Shown: positions 3,255 to 63,482, numbered from the stretch's first letter. The stretch: DNA of 64,000 nucleotides from Candidatus Thalassarchaeaceae archaeon (GCA_030747485.1 JASLKP010000005.1:6006-70005); one strand, 5' to 3'. Translations and numbers: made by a program. The notes: a model not told the origin generated them from the letters alone.

Positions 3255-3345
3255 TGATTCGGGAACACTACGTGTTCCCCGTTAGAACGGGTATCTATCA
3301 GGGAGCGGGTTATAATACGGGGCCATAGGTGGGACCTGACGAGGG

Positions 3346-16609: not shown

Positions 16610-19600
16610 ATGCAGATGAATACAGCCGCCCCCATGGTCCAGAACCTGCGAGTCCAATCATTGGCTTCGACTCGGGCCATTTTACTGGCGGGTTTGATGA
16701 TTTTTAGCACGACCATCCTGCCCGTCGTCAGTGCGTACGACACAGATAGTGATGGTATTGATGATTCAGTAGATGATTGTCCAGTAGCGGCAGGAAATAG
16801 TTCGGTTGATCGTGTCGGTTGTCCTGACAGAGATGGCGATGGGACCAGTGACAAGAATGATCCCTGGACTATTCAAGGAGGTGGGTTTTCTGAAGAAGCA
16901 CATCAATCGAGTAACGATGACTACTATGCTGTCTTCTTCAATTACGATGGAAGTCAATATCTAACCTCAGCAGAGAATGGATGGATGCGAATTTGGGATA
17001 CGAGCACTCGACAGAATCTCAGATCAGTACAAACTGACGGGATTTTTGATGTCGGGTGGTCGCCAGATGGGGCGTACGTCGCTGCAGTCACTGACAATGA
17101 TGAATTGAGAGTGTACCACGCTTCAAACATGTCTGTCTTATTCACCGCAAGCACAGATGTGGGTAGTGGTGACCAACCCAATGAATTAGAATTCAGTCCT
17201 GACGGGACAATGGTTGCTGTCGTCATCGGAAGATCTGGGAATTCCGGAACGAATGGTGAAGTCCAAATTTACAATGCGATGACCGGGGTAGAAATGACTT
17301 CGTTTAATCCTGGTTCAGCAGATCGATTTAACTCAGTTGATTGGAGTCCTGATGGGAATCGTATTTTGATTGGTGGACGTGAGGATGTATGGATTTACAA
17401 CACCGGTAGTTGGGGCTTCAACAGTAGCGTCAATACGAATCGAGGTACCAACAATGGTGTTGAATGGTCACCAGATGGAAACTCGTTTGCGACCTGTGAA
17501 GCATGGGAAAGTAGTGGTGCCAGAGTCAGGATGTATGAAGTAGCAACCATGCAACAAGTGTGGTCGTATTCAACTTCAACATCATGTAACACACTTACAT
17601 TTTCACCGGATTCAACCCAAATTGGGGCTTCAATGACCTATTATCAGTCAGATGGAGCGAGTGTTAGAATTTTCAATGCAGATACTGGAAGTATCATAGA
17701 TACAGTTTCAGGGCCGAGACCCGGTGGCTGTACTAGTGGCGGTGGCGGAAACAATTGTGGTTCAATCTACGGTGTGGATTGGCACCCCAATGGAATGTAC
17801 ATCATAAGCGCTCATGGACGAGATGATGAGGGCATATACCACTGGATTGTCGACCCTGATATCGACAATGATGGAGTACTCAATGAAGACGATGCATTCC
17901 CTGAAGATGGAACTCAGTGGGATGACACTGATGGTGATGGTTATGGTGATAATCCAGCTCCTGCCACGGAGCCAGATGCCTGTGTGACCATTTTTGGTAC
18001 ATCTAACATGGACAGATACGGTTGCCCTGATGATGATGGCGATGGATGGTCAAACGATGGCGATGCATTTCCCTCTGATCCCTACCAATGGTCTGATGCA
18101 GATGGTGATGGTTATCCTTCAAATCTCGACGATCCGCGTGATCCAAATCCATACGGACATCTAGATGCCTTCGACAACAATCCAACTCAATGGGCTGATT
18201 CGGATGGAGATGGCTATGGAGATAATTTTGCCAACGCATCATGGGAAAGCATTCGACCCGTAGATTGGCCTGGACAATTAATGTCGATGACACCGATCGA
18301 GATGGTTGATATCGACACATTCCCGCTGAATCCCGAACAATGGAATGATACGGATGGTGACTGGGTTGGTGATGAACCATTCACAAGTCGTTCAGATGGA
18401 TGTCCCGATGCATGGGGTGATTCCATCTGGGACCGAATCGGTTGCCCTGATAGTGATGGTGATGGATACTCTGACCCTGGAAACGGCTACCCTGGAGAAG
18501 GTTTAGCAAGTCCAATTGGTGATGCCGATGCATTCGTCGATGACCCTAGCCAATGGCACGACTCTGATGGAGATGGTTTTGGAGACAATACTTCTGGCTC
18601 GCAAGGTGATGCATGTCCTGGCCAACCAGGTACCAGTTGGTGGGCCATCGAATGGGATTATGTCAATGAGACCTATTTCGATAAGCAATGGTTTGGTTGT
18701 GAAGACAACGATGGGGACGGATATGCAAACAGTGGAGAAGCCTTCCCAAACGACCCAACTCAATGGCAAGATACTGATGGTGATGGTGTCAACAGAAACA
18801 GTGTAGCATCATCCTGTGGAGATAATCCTGAAGGCAATAATCCTGATTTATTCCCGTTGGATGGGACTCAATGCACCGACCGTGATGGAGATGGTTACGG
18901 TGATTTTGCAAGTGGACCAAATGGTGACTGGTTCCCAGATGATCCGACTCAATGGAAAGACAGTGATGGTGATGGATACGGCGACAATGCTGATGGGACA
19001 AACGCTGATGTTTGTCCCTTCGTAGCAGGTACCATCAATACGGCTGAAGCAAGAGGTTGCCCAGACAGTGATAATGATGGAACCCCTGACCCCCAAGATG
19101 CCTTCCCAAACAATCCCTTAGAGGATAGCGATTCGGATGGTGATGGATTTGGTGATGCGTTTGAGGATGATTGTATCCTAACACCAGGTGCCTCAAACAT
19201 GGGAGGGACGTTTGGTTGTCCAGATTCAGATGGTGATTATTGGGCCGATTCCATCGACATATTCCCTGATGACGGAACCCAATGGGAAGACTCGGATGGA
19301 GATGGATATGGAGATAATTACACATACACAAATGTTACTGGTCACTCAACATCTGCTGATGGTTACATTTGGGGATGCGATGTTGATCCCGGCCTGATAA
19401 TGTCAAGAATTCAAAATGGTGATGCCTTCCCAGAGGATGCCACTCAATGGAGTGATACCGATGGAGATGGTCATGGTGATAATTACGGTGAAGCATTGAA
19501 TCTCACCACTCGACTAGAGTGCTGGCCGGGAGAATTTGTGGATAATGCCAGAGATGCTGATGCTTTCCCTCTACGTTACACACAATGGAAAGATGCTGAC

Positions 19601-20140
19601 CGAGATGGATATGGTGACAACAGCATTGGAGGCGCTTTCCAAGGTGACCTCTGCAAGAGCGAACAGGGATTCTCATATCTCGATAAATATGGTTGTTTAG
19701 ACTCGGATGGAGATGGTTGGTCCGACGTTGGAGATGCTTGTCCATACGATCCCAATTTCCATTTGGTATCAGAACAATGCAAAATTACTGAACCGGATTC
19801 TGGGCAAAGTGGAGATTCGGAATCCTCTGGTATGGTCATGTACATTATTGGCGGTTTAGTCGCCTTCCTTCTCATGCTCATCTTTGTAGCTCTTGTCGCT
19901 AAACAGATGGGGGCACGGAAGAGAATTGATGAAATTCGTGAACTTCAAGCACACGATGCAGTCATGATTGAAGAAGAAGAACAAAGACGTCAGAAATGGA
20001 TTGATTATTATTTGGCACAAGGTGATATTGAGAAAGCAAAGGAACTCGGCTATGTTGAGAAAGCTGAATGGCAACTTCATCAAGAAAAGACCGAAGCAGA
20101 GGCTGCAGCGTTACCCAATATGGACGACCTATTCAGTTAG
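16610..20140 (+). CDS. Giant surface protein: signal peptide, WD40-like beta-propeller, about 25 thrombospondin-type-3 Ca-binding repeats, C-terminal TM anchor and cytoplasmic coiled-coil tail
   Basis: Signal peptide (LLAGLMIFSTTILPVVSA), repeated (W/F)SPDG propeller blades, many DxDxDGxxDxxD motifs, a TM segment (IIGGLVAFLLMLIFVALV) and a charged tail. Confidence 0.7.
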   Translation: MQMNTAAPMVQNLRVQSLASTRAILLAGLMIFSTTILPVVSAYDTDSDGIDDSVDDCPVAAGNSSVDRVGCPDRDGDGTSDKNDPWTIQGGGFSEEAHQSSNDDYYAVFFNYDGSQYLTSAENGWMRIWDTSTRQNLRSVQTDGIFDVGWSPDGAYVAAVTDNDELRVYHASNMSVLFTASTDVGSGDQPNELEFSPDGTMVAVVIGRSGNSGTNGEVQIYNAMTGVEMTSFNPGSADRFNSVDWSPDGNRILIGGREDVWIYNTGSWGFNSSVNTNRGTNNGVEWSPDGNSFATCEAWESSGARVRMYEVATMQQVWSYSTSTSCNTLTFSPDSTQIGASMTYYQSDGASVRIFNADTGSIIDTVSGPRPGGCTSGGGGNNCGSIYGVDWHPNGMYIISAHGRDDEGIYHWIVDPDIDNDGVLNEDDAFPEDGTQWDDTDGDGYGDNPAPATEPDACVTIFGTSNMDRYGCPDDDGDGWSNDGDAFPSDPYQWSDADGDGYPSNLDDPRDPNPYGHLDAFDNNPTQWADSDGDGYGDNFANASWESIRPVDWPGQLMSMTPIEMVDIDTFPLNPEQWNDTDGDWVGDEPFTSRSDGCPDAWGDSIWDRIGCPDSDGDGYSDPGNGYPGEGLASPIGDADAFVDDPSQWHDSDGDGFGDNTSGSQGDACPGQPGTSWWAIEWDYVNETYFDKQWFGCEDNDGDGYANSGEAFPNDPTQWQDTDGDGVNRNSVASSCGDNPEGNNPDLFPLDGTQCTDRDGDGYGDFASGPNGDWFPDDPTQWKDSDGDGYGDNADGTNADVCPFVAGTINTAEARGCPDSDNDGTPDPQDAFPNNPLEDSDSDGDGFGDAFEDDCILTPGASNMGGTFGCPDSDGDYWADSIDIFPDDGTQWEDSDGDGYGDNYTYTNVTGHSTSADGYIWGCDVDPGLIMSRIQNGDAFPEDATQWSDTDGDGHGDNYGEALNLTTRLECWPGEFVDNARDADAFPLRYTQWKDADRDGYGDNSIGGAFQGDLCKSEQGFSYLDKYGCLDSDGDGWSDVGDACPYDPNFHLVSEQCKITEPDSGQSGDSESSGMVMYIIGGLVAFLLMLIFVALVAKQMGARKRIDEIRELQAHDAVMIEEEEQRRQKWIDYYLAQGDIEKAKELGYVEKAEWQLHQEKTEAEAAALPNMDDLFS
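17850..19750 (+). repeat. Tandem coding repeats (TSP3-like DxDGDGxxD calcium-binding units) inside the surface-protein gene
   Basis: Recurring gatggtgatgg / gatggagatgg nucleotide motifs and DGDGYGDN peptide motifs. They generate spurious His-rich ORFs on the opposite strand. Confidence 0.7.
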
Positions 20141-20892
20141 GCAGCCAAATCATCATCAAACCGATTGAAGGGTAGCGCATCGAAAGTTTCGATATTCGGA
20201 GAATTGAGTGAAATATTGTGCGTCAGTGCTTCTTCAATTGTCACCCAATCTGGAGTTGAACCATCAATCCAATCGTAACGATGGCCAGGAATCAATCTCC
20301 AATCACTTGGAAGTGATTCCAATACGCTTCTTGCGTTTCGTAAACTTCGCCACTGAGCAGCGGGGTCGCTGCCAGGTAAATCTACGCGTCCTGAACGCAT
20401 GGTGAATAACAAATCACCAGCCACATAGACCCCATGTCCGTGAAATGTCACATGACCAGGGGCATGTCCAGGTGAATGGATGACTGAAAGAGAAATGTTT
20501 CCTGCAGTCCAATCCACAGATTCATCAGGTAAATGTTTCCAAACGTGTGTGAAATCAGTTCGACGGAAAATGATTCGACCAAGAATACTGGGGCTCACTG
20601 AATCCTCATGACCCCATACTTCGATTTCAGGGTAGACTTTTCGAATTTGAGCGACACCATGTGTATGATCTCGATGAGTATGTGTCAACAGAATATGAGA
20701 GGGTGTAATCTCTTCTTTTTCCAATGCAGAAAGCCATCCCTTACCATCCCACGGATCGACGATAATTGCAACATTATTTTCACGATTAATGAATGCAATA
20801 TTCATATTGGCAAAAGGCCCCATTTGAGCAATCCAAATTTCGACACCATCGTGTGAAATTGAGACTTCAAAATCTCCCTTTGCTAGGACCAT
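20137..20892 (-). CDS. MBL-fold metallo-hydrolase (glyoxalase II/hydroxyacylglutathione hydrolase-like)
   Basis: LTHTHRDHTHG (HxHxDH) zinc-binding motif, 251 aa. Confidence 0.75.
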   Translation of the reverse strand: MVLAKGDFEVSISHDGVEIWIAQMGPFANMNIAFINRENNVAIIVDPWDGKGWLSALEKEEITPSHILLTHTHRDHTHGVAQIRKVYPEIEVWGHEDSVSPSILGRIIFRRTDFTHVWKHLPDESVDWTAGNISLSVIHSPGHAPGHVTFHGHGVYVAGDLLFTMRSGRVDLPGSDPAAQWRSLRNARSVLESLPSDWRLIPGHRYDWIDGSTPDWVTIEEALTHNISLNSPNIETFDALPFNRFDDDLAA

Positions 20893-21007
20893 AGTTGGGC
20901 CAAGACAGGGGGCCGAATAGATATTTGTGGCAACATTGGCCCCCCTTAGGGGGTGCCAATGGGTTCAAACGGGAGTGGTGCATTCCGAAATTACTGGGGG
21001 ACAGCGT

Positions 21008-23638
21008 ATGCGAGGTGAATTGAGTGGCCGCGCGATTGTACCAATGCTACTCATTGGAATGCTTGTACTTGTTCCATTTTCATCTGTAAGTGGTGAAATC
21101 TCTTCAAATGGATTGGAATTAGTCATCGAAATTGATGATCAAAATGGTGCGCTCTATCACACAAATGAGGCCCCACTTGAATTGACTGTGAAAATACAAA
21201 ATCACGGAGATGTCAGTCGAGAAGTGACATACAATCCTGCTTGTCCATTCAATTTAGTCATACATTCTGACAGTTGGTCGTATGACCTCGATGAAGACAG
21301 AATCTGCCCTACACAAGAGCGTGCAATCACCATCCAACCAGGTCAAACTCGAGTCATTTCTACATTGAATTGGGATTGGGCTGATGCACCAAGTGGCACA
21401 CTGATTCTTGAATTTGAACAACCAGAATCATCACTTGCTACAATTTCAACTGTTGAATATCATTCAATCATTGGAATGCCTGAACATTTAGAATTACAGG
21501 CAGTGTTAGGTGAAACCATTGGTGAACAGATCGGACACACTGATTCAATGCCAGCCATGTTCCACTTGAAATTGGTCAACACAGGTGACGAAGTAGTCGA
21601 GGTGCCTTTTGATGAATCATGTCATATCCTGATGACGATTGATGAACTGGTTCGTTCACTCACAAAGGTTGGGTGTGGGGGTGGTATCCTTGATGCTGGA
21701 GAAAGTGTTTCCCTCGGATGGACAAGTTGGAACTTCGACAATGTCGACGATGGTATGCACTCTATTGCATTCACAATGACCGGTGTTGAAGATGTAAGCA
21801 CAACAGTAGACACAATGTACACTCATAATCCATTCCCATCTCGACAGACGAACCTATTACCTAGCGTTAGTGTTGAGCTTGATGAGGAACTGAAGTGGCA
21901 ATTTAATGTAGAGAATGTTGAAGAGATTCCTGCAAAACTTGTCTTTGACAGTTTATGTATCACAGAGATGCATGTCATTTCACCCGAGGGTGGTATCGTA
22001 TACGATTCACGCACTGAACGTAATTGTCTATCCTCTGGAAGTCAACAACAAATCAAATCAGGTACAATTCATACATTGGAAAGCAATGTTTGGAATCTAC
22101 AAGATAGTAACGATTGTGAAATTAATGATGGATTGCACTTGTTGGTCATTACACAACCCGATTACAATCTAGTCTCGACGCAATCATTCGATTATGTTGG
22201 AGAGGGAACTGGTGATGAATGTCGAGCAGTTGCACAGGATTCATCGAACATTCGCTTTGCTGTCAACGATTTACAAATTCTAGATGCTGACTCTGTTGAT
22301 GAACGAATGTTATTTGATATACAACTTGAAAATCTTGGATTGGAGGATTTTGATATATACTGGGCCACTGATTGTTCTCTTGAAATTACAGTGAGTCAAC
22401 ATCAACATATCTACCGAACATGGAATCATGGTTGTGGAAACTCTGGACAAATACTCACTCTATCACCAAGCCAATCAGTTGTTTGGAGGGGGATAGAAGT
22501 CGCGTTTGTGGATGAGGGAGTAGCTCTTGAGAATGGCACATGGATCGTCACAATACGTTCAACATCTTCTCCAAATTTCTTCGTTGAGGCTGCGCATACA
22601 TACGATGGTCCTCACATTACTACTACCGATGTTGGAGACATTACAGAAGTCATTGAAATTGTGGATGAGAATCCAACACCTGAAGAAATTCCAAGTAATT
22701 TCATCCTTGAAGGGAAATGGCATTATGTTACTCAAACCAATCAGGGTTGTTGGCTCCTCACTGATTCAAGTGGAAGCGAACGCTCCTTTGTTGCACACAT
22801 GCAAGATGGACGATGGGCACCAATTCCGGGACTAACTGGAACCTACGATGTAGAGGAGACACCTGCTGCGGGAGACTGTGCTGCATGGACTGGCTTTGCA
22901 ATTCTTTCAACCATTGAGGAAGATGTACCAGCATCCATCATTGAAGAGCCTGTTGTCACTTCAAAACCAGTAGAGAGCCCTACTGAAGTTGTACTAGAGA
23001 GTGCACCCACTGTTGCTGCCGCTGTCGCGACCACCTCTCTGTCAATCATGGTCCTGTTATACATCACCAATACAGAATGGATTCGAATTTCTGCCCTTCA
23101 ATTGGGTATCGGTTTAGTTGGAATGGTACGCAAGACTCGAGAACATGATGGAGAATATCAACGGGGACGTATCATGGGTTACCTGACTGCGAATCCAGGT
23201 GTCCATTTCCGGGCATTGTTGGGAGCATTGAACATGAGTAATGGGCAATTAACTCATCATCTGAAGAGTCTTCAGGGTGAAGAAAGAGTATGGCGACGAA
23301 AAGATGGACGTCTTGTGCGATTCTATCCAGCGAGTATCCAACCATCCACTGAAGAGGATGATTTGCCCGTACCTCTACTCACACCAGATCCAAACAGTCT
23401 ACAAGGCAAGATTCTGAGACTCCTCGATGCAACTGAAAACGACATTGTAAATCTCAGTCAAAAAGAGTTAGCTGTTCGCCTAGAAGCAAGTCAACAATTG
23501 ATTAGTCACCATCTACGGACATTGGAAAAGTTCGGCCTCATTGAACGTGAAAAGGTCGGCATGAGATATCGGTATCAACTCACCCGAGAAGCAATCTTCT
23601 TGGTAAACAACAGTGAGTTCGAAGTTGACGGTGAATGA
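21008..23638 (+). CDS. Membrane-tethered transcription regulator: signal-anchor, four BsuPI-like extracellular beta-sandwich repeats, TM helix, two cytoplasmic winged-HTH domains
   Basis: Four internal repeats, each with a conserved Cys pair. A TM helix follows, then MarR/ArsR-like wHTH segments (YLTANPGVHFRALLGALNMSNGQLTHHLKSL and ILRLLDATENDIVNLSQKELAVRLEASQQLISHHLRTLEKFGLIE). The track start 20927 is in the same frame; 21008 gives a clean signal anchor. Confidence 0.55.
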   Translation: MRGELSGRAIVPMLLIGMLVLVPFSSVSGEISSNGLELVIEIDDQNGALYHTNEAPLELTVKIQNHGDVSREVTYNPACPFNLVIHSDSWSYDLDEDRICPTQERAITIQPGQTRVISTLNWDWADAPSGTLILEFEQPESSLATISTVEYHSIIGMPEHLELQAVLGETIGEQIGHTDSMPAMFHLKLVNTGDEVVEVPFDESCHILMTIDELVRSLTKVGCGGGILDAGESVSLGWTSWNFDNVDDGMHSIAFTMTGVEDVSTTVDTMYTHNPFPSRQTNLLPSVSVELDEELKWQFNVENVEEIPAKLVFDSLCITEMHVISPEGGIVYDSRTERNCLSSGSQQQIKSGTIHTLESNVWNLQDSNDCEINDGLHLLVITQPDYNLVSTQSFDYVGEGTGDECRAVAQDSSNIRFAVNDLQILDADSVDERMLFDIQLENLGLEDFDIYWATDCSLEITVSQHQHIYRTWNHGCGNSGQILTLSPSQSVVWRGIEVAFVDEGVALENGTWIVTIRSTSSPNFFVEAAHTYDGPHITTTDVGDITEVIEIVDENPTPEEIPSNFILEGKWHYVTQTNQGCWLLTDSSGSERSFVAHMQDGRWAPIPGLTGTYDVEETPAAGDCAAWTGFAILSTIEEDVPASIIEEPVVTSKPVESPTEVVLESAPTVAAAVATTSLSIMVLLYITNTEWIRISALQLGIGLVGMVRKTREHDGEYQRGRIMGYLTANPGVHFRALLGALNMSNGQLTHHLKSLQGEERVWRRKDGRLVRFYPASIQPSTEEDDLPVPLLTPDPNSLQGKILRLLDATENDIVNLSQKELAVRLEASQQLISHHLRTLEKFGLIEREKVGMRYRYQLTREAIFLVNNSEFEVDGE

Positions 23639-23722
23639 GGTCTCAATCGTAGGACCTTTCAAGAATACATCCCAAAGTCGGACAACGTGCACCATAGGTG
23701 CACGCACATGTGAGGACGATTC

Positions 23723-50400: not shown

Positions 50401-51591
50401 AGTGCCCACTGCAAGAAATCCCCCCATTGCATGCATCGATGCAGGGTTGATACCGGCAGCAGCCAATCCAGAAGTTCGTGGGCGGCCGTATCGTAATCTG
50501 AAACCACCGGGTGTATTGGGTTCACCAAAAACTGGGCGCCCAGCAATGATGTCATCCATGTAACGGTCGATTGTTTTGATACTGCGTGTGGAACTCACTG
50601 ATGCTTCAGCGTCTTTTGATTTTCCTTTTGTCGCAACTTTACTAATGAATTCCCATCCAGGGATTTTCAATCGTTCAGTATGTCTTTGAATTTTAGGTGC
50701 TTTCAAACAAAGACCCTCACCAATGACTAGCATGACACCACCTCGAATTCGGCTTCCTTCGATGTTGCGAACTTCACGATAACCTGCACATTCGATTTTT
50801 TCTGTTTCCTCTCCATTGACCATGACTGGACAGGCACGGACAATCATATCGATTTCTTCTGGAGGAGGGCGATATTGCAAACCGCCACGATACAGTCCAA
50901 ACTCTTCCTTTACTCGTTCAACTTCTGCATCTGTTGGCATATATCTAGCCAATCCTAGTTCTCGTCGAATCATATCTGCAATCAGAACCGCAAGTGCTTG
51001 AGCTGTTCCACCAGCGGCTCGTATTGGACCACAAAAGTCAACGGACACGAATCGAGATCCGTCGAGATTATTCAAGACTTGGATTCTTCCTATTCCTTCC
51101 AATGGAGCGACGAGAACGGCCTCTGTCAAAACGGCCAATCCAACACGCAAACCGGTGTCAATGCTCTTCTGGATATCCCCCGTTTTGTCGTGCATTGCTC
51201 TGGCCACTTTTACGGCCATCTCAATTGAAGATGTTTCTCGGTCTTTTTCTGCGAGCATGATTCGAATATCATCGGCAATTTTGATGCCGTCCAGATAGTC
51301 GACCTCAAGCAATTTTTCGGCTCGGTCCGCTAAATCCTCTGCTCTTGGAATTTCGACAACGTCGCGTAAATCAAGACCCTTTGCACGAGCTTCGGTGGCA
51401 ATACGGTACACTGTTTCACAATTTGTATCCATCCAATCTTGATACCTGTCCAATTCACTCTGTAATCGATTAGAGTCATATGGAGCCACTGCGGAATTGA
51501 CGCTGTCACCAGACATGATATGCACCCCGCCACTGCGAACAACTAGCATAGAACAGTGAGCGTCCAAAAGCATTGGGTGGTGGATTTGCAC
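47428..51591 (-). CDS. polC: DNA polymerase II (PolD) large subunit DP2
   Basis: Extensive match to the DP2 N-terminal region (GPIRAAGGTAQALAVLIAD ... RGGVMLVIGEGL ...) and a C-terminal Zn-finger region (CKRCDKK ... C). The true start is probably the internal Met at about 51516 (MSGDSV...). Confidence 0.9.
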   Translation of the reverse strand: MQIHHPMLLDAHCSMLVVRSGGVHIMSGDSVNSAVAPYDSNRLQSELDRYQDWMDTNCETVYRIATEARAKGLDLRDVVEIPRAEDLADRAEKLLEVDYLDGIKIADDIRIMLAEKDRETSSIEMAVKVARAMHDKTGDIQKSIDTGLRVGLAVLTEAVLVAPLEGIGRIQVLNNLDGSRFVSVDFCGPIRAAGGTAQALAVLIADMIRRELGLARYMPTDAEVERVKEEFGLYRGGLQYRPPPEEIDMIVRACPVMVNGEETEKIECAGYREVRNIEGSRIRGGVMLVIGEGLCLKAPKIQRHTERLKIPGWEFISKVATKGKSKDAEASVSSTRSIKTIDRYMDDIIAGRPVFGEPNTPGGFRLRYGRPRTSGLAAAGINPASMHAMGGFLAVGTQMKIERPGKACAVTPSDELDGPTVLLRSGQYGRIQSTEMWNRVEPEVISIWDNGEIMIGYGEFVENNKNLVPSGYVPEWFASDLLESLDSESKVEQFAEILGAPRRRLPQGIPSSGFIDGDNDSISAHKRQRIWHRRLRRMTVEWSTVVELSNTFLTAVPPPWNLWWHDLPIEFIPDLIDSLCSGRLESAISSDDGIVTTPQPGRTWMRIPGAAKNWIATEPTVLALDQDWDSKSMPGLIESLPKSIQGDWPRWTHCQEHGIIKSSLMILGVAHIHDGDDILITHGWEPLLEGLGLEFEDHEASDRPVRQRADAKEHVQVRLAGLASALTVVREESARRTTLSENRAAVRTEAETAARQRGATIAETEDEGDLAAADIEDAGPADSEALKSAEQLLDDHEVDGSLWVVRNCSALRWELAAPCRVGCRMGRPEKAAPREMKGKPHCIFPIGNEGGPQRLITTAANKGSYRVQISNRKCKRCDKKTPYTICHHRAIPDEPVECGGQTEPIDEKMSTSQRRKGIYQTIDIVGLLEVKRRNLGLDRIPQKFKGVKGLTSKQQSPEPLEKGILRAKHQLPTFKAGTIRYDMIDVPITHFRPRDIGTSVSQLVNLGYTHDIDGDELEREDQILELYPQDFIPSHLAADYLIRTCQFVDELLVRYYKMEEFYNVETVQDLIGHLCIALAPHTSGGVLTRIIGWSNASAGYGHTLFHAAKRRNCDGDEDALMLLLDGLLNFSQVLLPSSRGGRMDVPLVLSTRLKPDELDKEALNVDTAWWYPSSFYNATQDQPHPESLSKQMDIVENRLGSIGAMRGYGFTHDSDSIDSGPVNSSYKTLETMEDKMNGQLHLGQILRAVDVRRVASQVVESHFLPDLRGNLIAFTRQKFRCVRCGEKYRRMPLAGKCIIDPKASTRGRGGEKGMSFGTRGESNFCGGNLALTVSEGAVRKYIKVMRHVMDTYGVDLYTRQRVEWLAQSVDSLFNNDRIKVFTLDDFI

Positions 51592-51627
51592 TTCCTAAGG
51601 AAGTGAACTGTTGCACACCCAAGGTTC

Positions 51628-63386: not shown

Positions 63387-63482
63387 CATTGTAGCACAGT
63401 GCTACATCGACATATTGAGAACTGAAAGTCTCAGCGAACAATCATGGGCGAGGTCATTGGGGCAGATATACCCGTATTGCAC

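What the first reader, a model, noticed from the sequence alone, without database searches (positions are those of the whole stretch)
20893..23638. Membrane-tethered double winged-helix regulator with four extracellular BsuPI-like repeats
One polypeptide has a signal anchor, four internally repeated beta-sandwich-like modules of about 130 aa, a TM helix and two cytoplasmic MarR/ArsR-like wHTH domains. The repeats each carry a conserved Cys pair and a hydrophobic L-x-L/V-x-N-x-G strand, reminiscent of intracellular-proteinase-inhibitor (BsuPI) folds. This architecture suggests a one-component transmembrane signalling factor, possibly released by proteolysis, which is rarely described in archaea. 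The upstream divergent promoter region (20893..21007) contains nested GC hairpins (gggggcc ... ggccccc and ccccc-tta-ggggg).
Basis: partly seen in the sequence, partly recalled or inferred. Interest (0 to 1): 0.65.

Follow-up and report, generated by a model that had tools for sequence, protein, structure and literature searches.

The report
Membrane-anchored double winged-helix archaeal regulator
This gene of a marine Group II archaeon encodes a surface protein whose five extracellular beta domains are wired through one membrane helix to two DNA-binding-type winged-helix domains inside the cell; it is conserved across the whole order, belongs to a large archaeal family that nobody appears to have studied, and probably passes an outside signal directly to gene control.

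Summary
The ORF 21008..23638 (+), 876 aa, starts at ATG 21008, not GTG 20927. It encodes:
- a Sec-type signal peptide;
- four mutually homologous, disulfide-bearing BsuPI-like Ig-fold repeats;
- one TM helix;
- a long juxtamembrane helix;
- two ArsR/MarR-type winged-helix domains.

A second hydrophobic stretch after the TM is too polar to span the membrane, so the wHTH pair is cytoplasmic. Full-length orthologues exist in at least 188 species, essentially all of them Poseidoniales. The ectodomain is about 30% identical across them, the wHTH pair about 75%, and both recognition helices are nearly invariant.

The C-terminal TM plus tandem-wHTH module is the constant end of a large family (2338 cluster representatives) with swapped adhesin-like ectodomains. 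In haloarchaea it occurs free-standing (HVO_0163 type).

The inner upstream GC hairpin (20934..20961) is real, locus-specific and conserved in the near clade. It differs or is absent in other clades, so it is probably not this protein's operator. The outer "nested" arm is not conserved.

Best reading: a type-I transmembrane one-component regulator. Signal, targets and any proteolytic release are unknown. I found no published characterisation. It is a new variant of a known kind.

The parts
21008..23638 (+). Coding sequence of the 876-aa membrane-anchored tandem-wHTH protein (stop codon 23636-23638)
   Evidence: ORF list. The ATG 21008 start is supported by orthologue N-termini and by the conserved non-coding block upstream.
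21008..21094 (+). Residues 1-29: Sec-type signal peptide. The n-region is MRGELSGR, the h-region AIVPMLLIGMLVLVPF, and the c-region SSVSG|E.
   Evidence: Hydropathy. SP-like h-regions are present in all orthologues, with A-x-A|E sites in most. Cleavage is inferred.
21104..21472 (+). Residues 33-155: repeat D1, a BsuPI-like Ig-fold beta sandwich with Cys79-Cys100
   Evidence: Pfam BsuPI; profile hit to PDB 3ISY; AF2; hhalign against D2-D4.
21479..21832 (+). Residues 158-275: repeat D2, with Cys205-Cys223
   Evidence: hhalign D1-D2 98.2%, D2-D3 97.9%, D2-D4 96.9%; AF2; N-to-Cys spacing of 14.
21845..22207 (+). Residues 280-400: repeat D3, with Cys317-Cys340 plus an extra pair Cys370-Cys405
   Evidence: hhalign D1-D3 99.0%; weak Pfam BsuPI hit of 14.1 bits; AF2.
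22241..22615 (+). Residues 412-536: repeat D4, with Cys456-Cys476
   Evidence: hhalign 93.6-97.2% against D1-D3; AF2.
22616..22690 (+). Residues 537-561: acidic, poorly conserved, disordered linker
   Evidence: pLDDT below 50; 10% mean identity.
22691..22933 (+). Residues 562-642: D5, a membrane-proximal small beta domain with Cys581-Cys624 and invariant Trp and Gly residues; fold family unassigned
   Evidence: AF2 strands. Unrelated to D1-D4. No Pfam or PDB sequence match. It is the best-conserved ectodomain part, at 35% mean identity.
23003..23071 (+). Residues 666-688: the single transmembrane helix, with a conserved small/polar patch [AS]-[ST]-[TSG]-[SG]-[IL] at its centre
   Evidence: Hydropathy; dG -0.17 kcal/mol mean over 75 orthologues; AF2 helix; alignment.
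23072..23143 (+). Residues 689-712: conserved juxtamembrane helix. The motif is N-x-E-[WSG]-x-R-[IL]-P...G-L...G-[LM]-[VI]-[GR]-[RK]-T. The helix is continuous with the first helix of wHTH-1.
   Evidence: AF2 shows a single helix 690-728, block pLDDT 80-97. dG +8.7 kcal/mol, so it is not a TM. 52% mean identity. Low hydrophobic moment.
23144..23347 (+). Residues 713-780: wHTH-1 (HTH_HVO_0163_N type); recognition helix MSNGQLTHHLKSL, basic wing WRRKDGRLVRFY
   Evidence: Pfam PF24266 at 55.7 bits against a cut-off of 31; AF2; Foldseek ArsR/SmtB/MarR matches; recognition helix invariant order-wide.
23348..23398 (+). Residues 781-797: conserved proline-rich inter-domain linker (DLPVPLLTPDPNSLQG)
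   Evidence: 75% mean identity; invariant L786 P787 P789 L791 P793 D794 N796 S797; the LPxP motif is also present in remote homologues.
23399..23623 (+). Residues 798-872: wHTH-2 (ArsR/MarR type) with a C-terminal helix; recognition helix SQQLISHHLRTL
   Evidence: Pfam MarR_2, MarR and HTH_5; NCBIfam ArsR/SmtB; PDB 2OQG; AF2; Foldseek; homologous to wHTH-1.
20934..20961 (.). Imperfect 28-bp GC-rich palindrome or hairpin, CATTGGCCCCCC-TTA-GGGGGTGCCAATG, between the divergent MBL and regulator genes
   Evidence: unique in the window. Present once per locus, about 70 nt before the ATG, in 22 related loci. Found in 16/16 metagenome matches, only at this locus. The loop varies from 3 to 5 nt. It differs or is absent in other clades.
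20962..20970 (+). GGTTCAAAC: candidate TATA-like promoter box for the regulator gene (inferred)
   Evidence: Invariant in 21 species. A TTTCAA[AG] box is found order-wide upstream of this gene and upstream of LeuRS and other window genes.
20916..20926 (-). AT-rich box AATAGATATTT, about 29 nt from the MBL start codon (20892): candidate promoter of the divergent MBL gene (inferred)
   Evidence: Sequence; position conserved in alignment A3.
20137..20892 (-). Divergently transcribed glyoxalase-II-like metallo-beta-lactamase-fold hydrolase, the conserved neighbour
   Evidence: Pfam Lactamase_B. NCBIfam GSH_gloB at 83 bits, below its cut-off. Adjacent and divergent in 36/36 Thalassarchaeaceae loci and 20/35 of the others.

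Best explanation
The gene encodes a type-I single-pass membrane protein of a Marine Group IIb (Thalassarchaeaceae) archaeon.

**Anatomy (shown or strongly supported).**
- A signal peptide exports an acidic ectodomain rich in disulfides.
- The ectodomain is four BsuPI-like Ig-fold repeats plus a conserved membrane-proximal beta domain.
- One TM helix follows, then a conserved, moderately hydrophobic juxtamembrane helix that runs without a break into the first helix of wHTH-1.
- A proline-rich linker leads to wHTH-2.

**Mechanism (inferred).**
- The two ArsR-type winged helices are related to each other and both keep the S-x-H-H-L recognition motif and basic wings. They probably act as an intramolecular pseudo-dimer that binds DNA at the membrane.
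- A binding or mechanical event at the ectodomain would then be passed through the TM/juxtamembrane helix to change DNA binding. This would be a one-component transmembrane regulator.
- The outside part evolves fast and, in the wider family, is swapped for other adhesin-like modules. The inside part is almost frozen across the order. That argues for lineage-specific inputs feeding one conserved intracellular target.

**Unknown.** The signal, the target genes and whether the wHTH pair is ever released.

The conserved upstream palindrome is a cis element of the shared MBL/regulator intergenic region. It is more likely a structural hairpin than this protein's operator.
For: **Architecture.** Pfam, NCBIfam and PDB sequence hits. 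AF2 models: ectodomain pLDDT 70-90, C-terminal module pLDDT 88.9. Repeat homology. BsuPI profile hit to 3ISY. Foldseek matches each wHTH to ArsR/SmtB/CzrA/HlyU and to MepR-DNA complexes at rmsd 1.2-3 Å over about 80 residues with 25-32% identity, and matches the pair to tandem-WH proteins.

**Topology.**
- TM dG is -0.17 kcal/mol against +8.7 for the second hydrophobic stretch.
- The ectodomain has K+R 3.4%, D+E 16.4% and 12 conserved Cys. The C-terminal part has K+R 14.4% and about 0 Cys.

**Conservation.**
- 188 genome hits, essentially all Poseidoniales, full length.
- Mean identity to the window protein is 26-35% for the ectodomain and 73-76% for the wHTH domains.
- Recognition helices are near-invariant.

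**Module logic.**
- The C-terminal module is found in 2338 representatives of 200-1463 aa and is always C-terminal.
- 72 of 93 long members have a TM just upstream and 62 also have an SP-like N-terminus.
- Ectodomains include CARDB, NPCBM_assoc, NosD, TSP3 and FlgD_ig.
- The module is free-standing in haloarchaea (173 aa, annotated as an ArsR regulator), directly following a small membrane-protein gene in 4 genera.
- wHTH-1 and wHTH-2 are homologous.

**Context.** The divergent MBL gene is conserved.
Against: - No experiment and no DNA-binding data exist for any member, and I found no paper on the family.
- The ectodomains of the family are adhesin- or surface-protein-like, not classical small-ligand sensor folds such as Cache, PAS or CHASE. 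The protein could therefore be primarily structural.
- Tandem winged helices also serve protein-protein contacts, as in ESCRT-II, ScpB and RPC34, which are among the Foldseek hits.
- The one conserved palindrome next to the gene does not track the invariant recognition helices, so no candidate operator is in hand.
- Topology rests on hydrophobicity scales, composition and AF2, not on a dedicated predictor or an experiment.
- The relative orientation of the two wHTH domains could not be inspected, because no coordinates or PAE were returned.
Confidence: 0.55

Rival explanations
1. Regulated intramembrane proteolysis. The protein is a latent transcription factor. An extracellular cue, for example shedding of the Ig-like array by a secreted protease, triggers cleavage in or near the TM helix. 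The soluble tandem-wHTH fragment is then released to the nucleoid.
For: - The protein has a type-I orientation with the DNA-binding part C-terminal to the TM.
- The TM centre has a conserved small/polar patch, [AS]-[ST]-[TSG]-[SG]-[IL], and the juxtamembrane helix has conserved Pro and Gly. Such features occur in substrates of intramembrane proteases; this point rests on my own knowledge.
- The same tandem-wHTH unit is viable as a free 173-aa protein in haloarchaea.
- The disordered acidic linkers at 537-561 and 643-665 would be accessible to proteases.
Against: - No protease gene is linked in the conserved neighbourhood.
- The juxtamembrane helix is highly conserved and is modelled as rigidly continuous with wHTH-1. 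That fits conformational coupling at least as well as release.
- Small residues in a TM helix are equally typical of helix-helix dimerisation.
- There is no direct evidence of cleavage.
Confidence: 0.15
2. The protein is not a signalling regulator. It is a cell-envelope protein whose cytoplasmic tandem winged helix is an anchoring module. It would tether the surface Ig-like array to a cytoplasmic protein partner or non-specifically to the nucleoid, as a membrane-DNA tether, with a constitutive housekeeping role.
For: - It is an order-wide, apparently single-copy core gene embedded among housekeeping genes: LeuRS and an RNA polymerase subunit.
- The ectodomains of the wider family are adhesin- or S-layer-like: CARDB, NosD beta-helix, TSP3 and Ig-like.
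- The tandem-WH structural neighbours include protein-binding modules: ESCRT-II, ScpB and RPC34.
- The extreme conservation of the cytoplasmic part, including the proline-rich linker, would also fit a conserved protein partner.
Against: - Both wHTH domains retain the canonical ArsR recognition-helix motif and basic wings.
- Their best single-domain structural matches are DNA-bound repressors.
- Free-standing homologues are annotated as, and look like, ordinary small transcription factors.
Confidence: 0.2
3. Autoregulatory circuit. The tandem wHTH binds the conserved 28-bp palindrome 20934-20961 between its own promoter and the MBL promoter, and controls both genes.
For: - The palindrome is unique to this intergenic region in the window, in 22 related loci and in 16/16 metagenome matches.
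- It lies directly upstream of the conserved TTCAAAC box.
- The divergent MBL pairing is conserved.
- ArsR and MarR regulators typically bind palindromes near their own genes; this point rests on my own knowledge.
Against: - The recognition helices are invariant across the order, yet the palindrome is replaced by unrelated GC hairpins or is absent in other clades.
- The loop length varies from 3 to 5 nt, which would shift half-site phasing.
- A similar hairpin upstream of LeuRS shows compensatory stem changes, and perfect hairpins are enriched in intergenic DNA of this window. Both suggest a general class of structural hairpins rather than a specific operator.
Confidence: 0.1

Closest known systems
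Bacterial membrane-bound one-component regulators ToxR / TcpP / CadC (from established knowledge, not tested here)
   Same: One polypeptide combines an extracytoplasmic domain, a single TM helix and a cytoplasmic winged-helix DNA-binding domain. Signalling needs no phosphorelay, and DNA is bound at the membrane.
   Different: - Those proteins are type II: the wHTH is N-terminal and OmpR/PhoB-type, and the sensor is C-terminal.
- This protein is type I. A signal peptide and ectodomain come first, and the DNA-binding part is C-terminal.
- Here the DNA-binding part is a tandem of two ArsR-type wHTH domains.
- The ectodomain is an array of five beta domains rather than a compact periplasmic sensor.
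- There is no sequence relationship.
ArnR / ArnR1 of Sulfolobus acidocaldarius, the experimentally studied membrane-bound archaeal transcription factors (PMC6396743)
   Same: An archaeal HTH transcription factor that is anchored in the membrane and classed as a one-component system.
   Different: - ArnR has an N-terminal HTH, a HAMP-like and a sensing domain in the cytoplasm, and two C-terminal TM helices.
- It has no extracellular domain array, no signal peptide and a single HTH.
- The present protein has the inverse order and a large ectodomain.
Haloarchaeal HVO_0163-type free-standing tandem-wHTH proteins (Pfam PF24266; e.g. WP_004966864.1 of Haloarcula marismortui pHMA288)
   Same: They share the same two-domain unit, an HTH_HVO_0163_N wHTH followed by an ArsR/HTH_20 wHTH, at about 30% identity over both domains. 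In the one paper that mentions HVO_0163, it is called an ArsR-type transcription protein that rises under hypochlorite stress.
   Different: The haloarchaeal proteins are about 173-179 aa with no signal peptide, ectodomain or TM. Instead they directly follow a separate small membrane-protein gene, DUF7471-like in Haloarcula, in four genera. They are functionally uncharacterised as well.
ArsR/SmtB metalloregulators (SmtB, CzrA, ArsR, HlyU)
   Same: Each wHTH has the same fold and the same recognition-helix motif.
   Different: - There are no metal-site residues; the cytoplasmic part has essentially no Cys.
- It is a tandem in one chain instead of a homodimer.
- It is membrane-anchored.
BsuPI / IPI, intracellular proteinase inhibitor of Bacillus subtilis (PDB 3ISY; PMC3901451)
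   Same: D1-D4 share the Ig-like fold variant, shown by the Pfam PF12690 hit and by the family-profile hit to 3ISY over almost the whole domain. The paper notes that many family members are secreted or multi-domain.
   Different: - The domains here are extracellular, four in tandem, each with a conserved disulfide pair that IPI lacks (alignment).
- Protease inhibition is doubtful even for IPI and is untested here.
- The 2013 paper does not list fusion to a TM helix plus wHTH among the architectures it describes.

Membership tests
Pfam PF24266 HTH_HVO_0163_N (tandem-wHTH archaeal regulators) | Score above the curated gathering threshold for the N-terminal wHTH of the pair | tested here: met
   55.7 bits against a cut-off of 31, residues 718-778. 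All orthologues carry the precomputed hit.
Pfam PF24266 HTH_HVO_0163_N (tandem-wHTH archaeal regulators) | A second ArsR/MarR-type wHTH follows directly downstream | tested here: met
   MarR_2 at 30.1 bits (cut-off 27), MarR at 28 (24.6) and HTH_5 at 27.3 (22), over residues 799-849. The same pair is seen in the Haloarcula homologue. AF2 shows two wHTH folds.
ArsR/SmtB metalloregulators | Winged-helix fold with the S-x-x-S-x-H-L recognition helix | tested here: met
   NCBIfam NF033788 at 55.3 bits against a cut-off of 55, summed over two stretches. PDB 2OQG, 8QKF and 1R22. Foldseek SmtB, CzrA and ArsR at rmsd 2-3.8 Å.
ArsR/SmtB metalloregulators | Metal or metalloid sensing site: alpha3 Cys motif or alpha5 His/Asp/Glu site | tested here: not met
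   The cytoplasmic region has a mean of 0.5 Cys across 75 orthologues and none in the window protein. No ELCVCDL-type motif appears in the alignment. The alpha5 site was judged only by eye.
ArsR/SmtB metalloregulators | Soluble homodimer formed through alpha1/alpha5 | not testable with these tools
   The protein is membrane-anchored and carries two wHTH domains in one chain. Oligomeric state could not be modelled.
MarR family | wHTH flanked by N- and C-terminal helices that form the MarR dimer interface | tested here: inconclusive
   Domain-level Pfam hits are above cut-off, and Foldseek matches MepR and MarR over only about 80 of about 140 residues. The extra MarR dimerisation helices are not evident in the AF2 secondary structure.
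BsuPI (PF12690) Ig-like domains | Sequence match above the gathering threshold | tested here: met
   The whole protein scores 36 bits against 22.9. Single domains are below it: D1 21.7, D3 14.1, and none for D2 or D4. D2 and D4 are linked by profile-profile homology to D1 and D3. The family profile hits 3ISY at E 7.8e-4.
BsuPI (PF12690) Ig-like domains | Inhibition of subtilisin-type proteases | not testable with these tools
   This is a biochemical property. It is doubtful even for the founding member.
Membrane-bound one-component transcription regulators (functional class) | Extracytoplasmic domain, TM helix and cytoplasmic DNA-binding domain in one polypeptide | tested here: met
Membrane-bound one-component transcription regulators (functional class) | Sequence-specific DNA binding and signal-dependent transcriptional output | not testable with these tools
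   No operator could be assigned. The adjacent palindrome does not co-vary with the invariant recognition helices.
ToxR/CadC type | N-terminal OmpR/PhoB-type wHTH, type II topology | tested here: not met
   The wHTH domains are C-terminal and ArsR/MarR-type, and the topology is type I.
ArnR type (archaeal) | N-terminal HTH, HAMP/sensor domain and two C-terminal TM helices | tested here: not met
   The domain order is the opposite, and there was no HAMP hit.
RIP-activated membrane transcription factors | Site-1/site-2 cleavage releasing the DNA-binding fragment | not testable with these tools
   There are only circumstantial features: small/polar TM residues and disordered linkers.

The most novel reading that the evidence does not exclude
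The TM-juxtamembrane-tandem-wHTH cassette would be a general, previously unrecognised archaeal receptor chassis. Interchangeable adhesin-like ectodomains (BsuPI-like Ig arrays, CARDB, NosD, TSP3) report surface contact, particle attachment or extracellular proteolysis directly to a conserved DNA target. Transmission would be either by conformational coupling along the continuous juxtamembrane/wHTH helix or by Notch-like release. In Poseidoniales, which are uncultured and dominate surface-ocean archaea, this order-wide protein would then be the core switch between free-living and particle- or protein-associated states.
Probability: 0.2. Interest if true: 0.8.

Novelty: new variant of a known kind. 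Interest (0 to 1): 0.55.

Why it matters
Marine Group II archaea are abundant and uncultured, and how they sense their surroundings is essentially unknown.

This protein is conserved in every sampled lineage of the order. Its outside evolves fast and its inside is almost frozen, a pattern expected of a receptor feeding a core regulatory target.

The same cytoplasmic cassette sits behind many different surface-protein domains in other Thermoplasmatota, and it occurs free-standing next to small membrane proteins in haloarchaea. One experiment on any tractable member, such as HVO_0163 in Haloferax volcanii, could therefore open up a whole class of archaeal transmembrane signalling.

If it instead proves to be a structural tether, it would be a new kind of envelope-to-nucleoid link. 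Either outcome is informative.

Tried and rejected
1. **GTG 20927 as the start: rejected.** It would translate through the conserved non-coding block, and orthologue N-termini align at ATG 21008.
2. **A second TM helix at 690-707, which would put the wHTH pair outside: rejected.** Apparent insertion dG is +7 to +10 kcal/mol in all 75 orthologues. In remote homologues the stretch is only 11-12 hydrophobic residues with basic flanks on both sides. Composition also argues against it.
3. **Metalloregulator function: rejected.** There are no Cys or metal motifs.
4. **The palindrome as a known RNA:** no Rfam hit.
5. **The palindrome as a dispersed repeat or regulon-wide operator: rejected.** It occurs once in 64 kb, once per related locus, and only at this locus in the metagenome scan.
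6. **The palindrome as the autoregulatory operator: weakened**.
7. **The outer "nested" hairpin arm:** not conserved. The whole-region fold is not better than shuffles.
8. **Paralogues in the window:** none.
9. **D5 domain identity:** no Pfam or PDB sequence match.
10. **Third homologue search, with a diverse profile:** it returned mostly the same close orthologues because of word-index capping, so taxon names for remote members came only from cluster look-ups.
12. **Literature searches** for HVO_0163, membrane-tethered archaeal transcription factors, Poseidoniales regulators and arCOG wHTH found no characterisation.
13. **A link between TSP3-repeat proteins and this module was left as a lead only.** TSP3 repeats are fused in P0091, neighbouring in haloarchaeal cassettes, and two genes away in the window.

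Full report
**1. What is at the coordinates.**

The + strand carries one long ORF, from GTG 20927 or ATG 21008 to the stop at 23638. I take ATG 21008 as the start, giving 876 aa; all residue numbers use this start. There are two reasons.
- All orthologues align from this methionine, with a basic n-region and a hydrophobic h-region.
- The stretch between the GTG and the ATG is a conserved non-coding block. Its reading frame relative to the gene differs between genomes.

The neighbours are as follows.
- A divergently transcribed glyoxalase-II-like metallo-beta-lactamase-fold hydrolase lies at 20137-20892 on the - strand.
- Upstream of that is a giant WD40/TSP3-like surface protein, 16610-20140.
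- Leucyl-tRNA synthetase lies downstream, followed by a DCC1-like oxidoreductase and a TPD protein.

**2. Domain anatomy.**

*Sequence-family hits.*
- Pfam gives BsuPI (PF12690) at residues 50-135.
- It gives HTH_HVO_0163_N (PF24266) at 718-778 and MarR/ArsR-type HTH models at about 799-863.
- NCBIfam's ArsR/SmtB subfamily model matches in two stretches.
- PDB sequences of ArsR-family proteins match wHTH-2, and a 77-aa archaeal-type DNA-binding protein (5DUK) matches wHTH-1.

*Full-length AF2 model* (14-sequence alignment). It shows five beta domains at pLDDT 70-90:
- D1, residues 36-152;
- D2, residues 161-271;
- D3, residues 283-396;
- D4, residues 415-532;
- a disordered acidic linker at 539-562;
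- D5, residues 564-639.

Foldseek against the PDB returns only generic tandem Ig-like, macroglobulin-domain and Fn3 arrays.

*The four repeats.*
- Profile-profile comparison of sub-alignments from 75 orthologues shows D1-D4 are homologous to one another (93.6-99.0% probability). D5 is unrelated.
- Each of D1-D4 has the strand motif h-x-h-x-N-x-G, a Cys exactly 14 residues after the Asn, and a partner Cys 18-23 residues later.
- D3 has an extra Cys pair and D5 has its own pair.
- All twelve Cys are conserved: 11 in 75/75 orthologues and one in 74/75.
- A D1 family profile finds the B. subtilis intracellular proteinase inhibitor structure 3ISY as its best PDB hit, over nearly the whole domain (E 7.8e-4).

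"BsuPI-like" is therefore justified at the level of fold and homology. It says nothing about protease inhibition, which is doubtful even for the founding member. D5 has no Pfam or PDB sequence match.

**3. Membrane topology.**

There are three hydrophobic stretches: the N-terminal h-region (about residues 9-24), residues 666-688, and a weaker one at 690-707.
- On a biological hydrophobicity scale, the best 19-mer of the 666-688 stretch averages -0.17 kcal/mol over 75 orthologues.
- The best 19-mer of the 690-707 stretch averages +8.7, with a range of 7.2 to 9.9.
- In remote family members the second stretch shrinks to 11-12 hydrophobic residues flanked by Lys or Arg on both sides.
- The ectodomain is very acidic and poor in basic residues (D+E 16.4%, K+R 3.4%) and holds all the Cys. 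The C-terminal 170 residues have K+R 14.4% and essentially no Cys.

I conclude the order is signal peptide, then outside, then one TM helix, then inside. The VSG|E site, which is A-x-A|E in relatives, suggests the signal peptide is cleaved. I could not run a dedicated predictor, so cleavage remains inference.

**4. The cytoplasmic module.**

A second AF2 run used residues 660-876 with an alignment of 22 diverse C-terminal modules. It gave pLDDT 88.9. The elements are:
- TM helix, 666-688;
- a one-residue break, then a single 39-residue helix, 690-728. This contains the conserved juxtamembrane motif and runs straight into wHTH-1;
- the rest of wHTH-1: helices 734-741 and 745-757, wing 761-774;
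- a conserved proline-rich linker;
- wHTH-2: helices 798-809, 818-824 and 829-841, wing 845-858, C-terminal helix 860-872.

Foldseek matches each wHTH to ArsR, SmtB, CzrA, HlyU and to MepR/MarR, including DNA complexes (rmsd 1.2-3 Å, 25-32% identity). It matches the pair to tandem-WH proteins: RPC34, TFIIIC, ESCRT-II and ScpB.

The two wHTH domains are homologous to each other in register. Both keep the S-x-H-H-L recognition motif and a basic wing. There are no metal-site residues. The juxtamembrane helix is only weakly amphipathic.

**5. Distribution.**
- The closest protein in the 5.8-billion-sequence collection is 89% identical. About 20 full-length relatives are 52-57% identical, one of them named as coming from a Candidatus Thalassarchaeaceae archaeon.
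- A scan of one genome per GTDB species found 188 relatives.
- Among the 80 loci kept, 42 titles name Poseidoniales, Thalassarchaeaceae, Thalassarchaeum, Poseidoniaceae, Poseidonia or Marine Group II. The other 36 archaeal titles carry only generic names (Methanobacteriota, Euryarchaeota, "uncultured euryarchaeote"). I read these as the same order because the proteins are collinear full-length orthologues.
- Two further titles name bacteria and are probably mis-binned contigs. The best species representative is only 59% identical.
- All are 840-920 aa and have an SP-like N-terminus.
- Mean identity to the window protein is 26-35% for D1-D5, 42% for the TM, 52% for the juxtamembrane helix and 73-76% for the wHTH domains and their linker.
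- Both recognition helices are almost invariant across the order.

A full-library HMMER search with residues 660-876 found 2338 cluster representatives, 532 of them at E <= 1e-10. In proteins of 200-1463 aa the module is always at the C-terminal end.
- Among the top 150 hits, 93 have more than 150 residues upstream of the module. Of these, 72 have a TM-like segment just before wHTH-1, and 62 of those also have an SP-like N-terminus.
- Their ectodomains carry CARDB, NPCBM_assoc, DUF11, NosD beta-helix, TSP3 or FlgD-Ig domains.
- The named members are from Methanomassiliicoccales, Thermoplasmata and Poseidoniales.

Haloarchaeal megaplasmids carry the tandem wHTH as a free-standing protein.
- It is 173-179 aa and annotated as an ArsR/SmtB or wHTH regulator.
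- It lies 3-4 nt downstream of a small membrane-protein gene in Haloarcula, Salinigranum, Natronorubrum and Halorubrum.

The founding Pfam member, HVO_0163, is mentioned in only one paper. There it is an "ArsR-type" protein that rises under hypochlorite stress.

**6. The upstream region.**

The inner hairpin is an imperfect palindrome at 20934-20961, CATTGGCCCCCC-TTA-GGGGGTGCCAATG.
- It is unique in the window.
- It occurs once per locus, about 70 nt before the ATG, in 22 related loci.
- An exact-pattern scan of 241 million metagenome records found 16 contigs. In every one the match sits at the start of an MBL-hydrolase gene. In 15 it lies between that gene and an orthologue of this regulator; the sixteenth locus ends 10 nt past the match.

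In a 21-species alignment the stems are nearly invariant. The loop varies from 3 to 5 nt, and a bulge or mismatch is retained but swaps arms in one clade. The palindrome is followed by an invariant GGTTTCAAACGGGAG.

A TTTCAA[AG] box recurs order-wide upstream of this gene at a spacing compatible with an archaeal TATA box. It also recurs upstream of LeuRS and other window genes. I take it as the likely core promoter; this is inference.

The AT-rich box at 20916-20926 sits about 29 nt from the MBL start codon. It fits a promoter for a leaderless MBL transcript; this too is inference.

The outer GGGGGCC arm is not conserved. The region as a whole is not more stable than shuffles. Rfam finds nothing.

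Crucially, other clades have unrelated GC hairpins (CGCCTC-TATAA-GAGGCG, GCATCC-TTC-GGATGC) or none, while their recognition helices are the same. The palindrome is therefore unlikely to be this protein's operator.

A comparable hairpin 19 nt before the LeuRS start shows compensatory G-C to A-T changes between species. Perfect hairpins are over-represented in the window, 38 against about 20 expected, and 12 of them lie in the 12% of the window that is intergenic. These genomes seem to use structured elements at promoters or 5' ends generally.

**7. Context.**
- The divergent MBL gene is adjacent in 36/36 Thalassarchaeaceae loci and in 20/35 of the others.
- LeuRS is adjacent downstream in 37/37 and 25/39 respectively.
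- This is compatible with co-regulation of the MBL gene, but equally with simple conserved synteny.
- One clade has a PAS-HisKA-HATPase gene inserted nearby.

**8. Interpretation.**

*Shown or strongly supported:*
- the architecture and topology;
- the homology of the repeats;
- the wHTH folds;
- order-wide orthology;
- the modular family.

*Inferred:*
- DNA binding by the tandem wHTH as an intramolecular pseudo-dimer;
- transmembrane signalling through the continuous juxtamembrane/wHTH-1 helix;
- a possible role for the conserved small/polar TM patch in dimerisation or cleavage.

I put 0.55 on a membrane-resident one-component regulator. I put 0.15 on a proteolytically released factor and 0.2 on a non-regulatory envelope-to-cytoplasm or nucleoid tether. 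I put about 0.1 on autoregulation via the palindrome, which could apply under any of the transcription-factor readings.

**9. Comparison and novelty.**

Functionally the protein resembles ToxR/CadC-type bacterial regulators and the archaeal ArnR. The domain order is inverted, however. The DNA-binding part is a tandem ArsR-type pair, and the sensor is an Ig-like array.

It is a member of Pfam HTH_HVO_0163_N and, at domain level, of ArsR/MarR and BsuPI. It is not a metalloregulator. Databases already label relatives "ArsR/MarR family transcriptional regulator". I found no paper describing the architecture, its order-wide conservation or the modular family.

I therefore rate it a new variant of a known kind, with interest 0.55. 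It is real, conserved, ecologically relevant and experimentally approachable through haloarchaeal relatives, but its function is still inferred.

Noticed in passing
window 23686-23704 (and 23656-23663): A perfect hairpin, CGTGCACC-ATA-GGTGCACG, lies 19 nt before the LeuRS start codon and is preceded by CTTTCAAG. Relatives keep it at the same place with variable loops. Two species have CGTACACC...GGTGTACG, a compensatory G-C to A-T change. It is probably a structured 5' end of the LeuRS mRNA or a terminator or insulator for the regulator gene.
   Followed up: partly
window 20962-20970, 23656-23663 and other upstream regions (e.g. before 31544, 52818): A TTTCAA[AG] box recurs upstream of genes in the window. 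It is conserved order-wide upstream of this gene, as GGTTTCAAACGGGAGG in MGIIb and CCTTTCAAG(G/T)GATGA in MGIIa. It is a candidate TATA-like promoter element of Poseidoniales.
   Followed up: partly
window, whole; e.g. 3261-3279, 51589-51605, 63390-63406: Perfect hairpins (stem >= 7, loop 3-6) number 38, against about 20 expected (maximum 28 in 20 Markov simulations). Twelve of them fall in the 12% of the window that is intergenic.
   Followed up: no
window 16610-20140 (+): A 1176-aa surface protein has a signal peptide, a WD40 beta-propeller, dozens of DxDxDG thrombospondin-type-3-like calcium repeats and a C-terminal TM helix. It is a conserved neighbour. Its stop overlaps the stop of the convergent MBL gene (20137-20140).
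   Followed up: partly
window 20956-21015 (+): A short upstream ORF starts at the ATG inside the right arm of the palindrome (MGSNGSGAFRNYWGTAYAR*). It is out of frame with the gene here but in frame in some relatives, where gene callers extend the N-terminus (MVSNGR...; proteins P0009 and P0011, loci L018, L023, L026). Conservation is at the nucleotide level, not the peptide level.
   Followed up: partly
L003 3899-5140; L004 781-2022: In the clade that is 36% identical, a PAS-HisKA-HATPase histidine kinase gene is inserted between the WD40 surface protein and the MBL gene, next to the regulator. It is absent from the window.
   Followed up: no
L101 1180-1992 (Haloarcula marismortui pHMA288); L102, L103, L104: Haloarchaeal free-standing tandem-wHTH genes lie 3-4 nt downstream of a small gene: a 95-aa, 3-TM membrane protein (weak DUF7471 hit) in Haloarcula, and an unexamined 95-109-aa hypothetical in the other three genera. 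They are convergent with a cassette encoding a TSP3-repeat protein and a ferric-reductase-like membrane protein, with an ApbE-like flavin transferase also seen in Haloarcula. TSP3 repeats also occur fused to the module in P0091 and in the window's neighbouring giant protein. This may be a recurring association.
   Followed up: partly
P0066 cluster (348-355 aa, 179 members): Poseidoniales carry a second, much shorter paralogue family with a small ectodomain, a TM helix and the same tandem wHTH, annotated as a MarR family regulator. No copy lies in this window.
   Followed up: partly
L046, L052: Two loci with orthologues of clear Poseidoniaceae type come from records titled "Yoonia sp." MAG and "Deltaproteobacteria bacterium" SAG. 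They are probably mis-binned or contaminating archaeal contigs.
   Followed up: no
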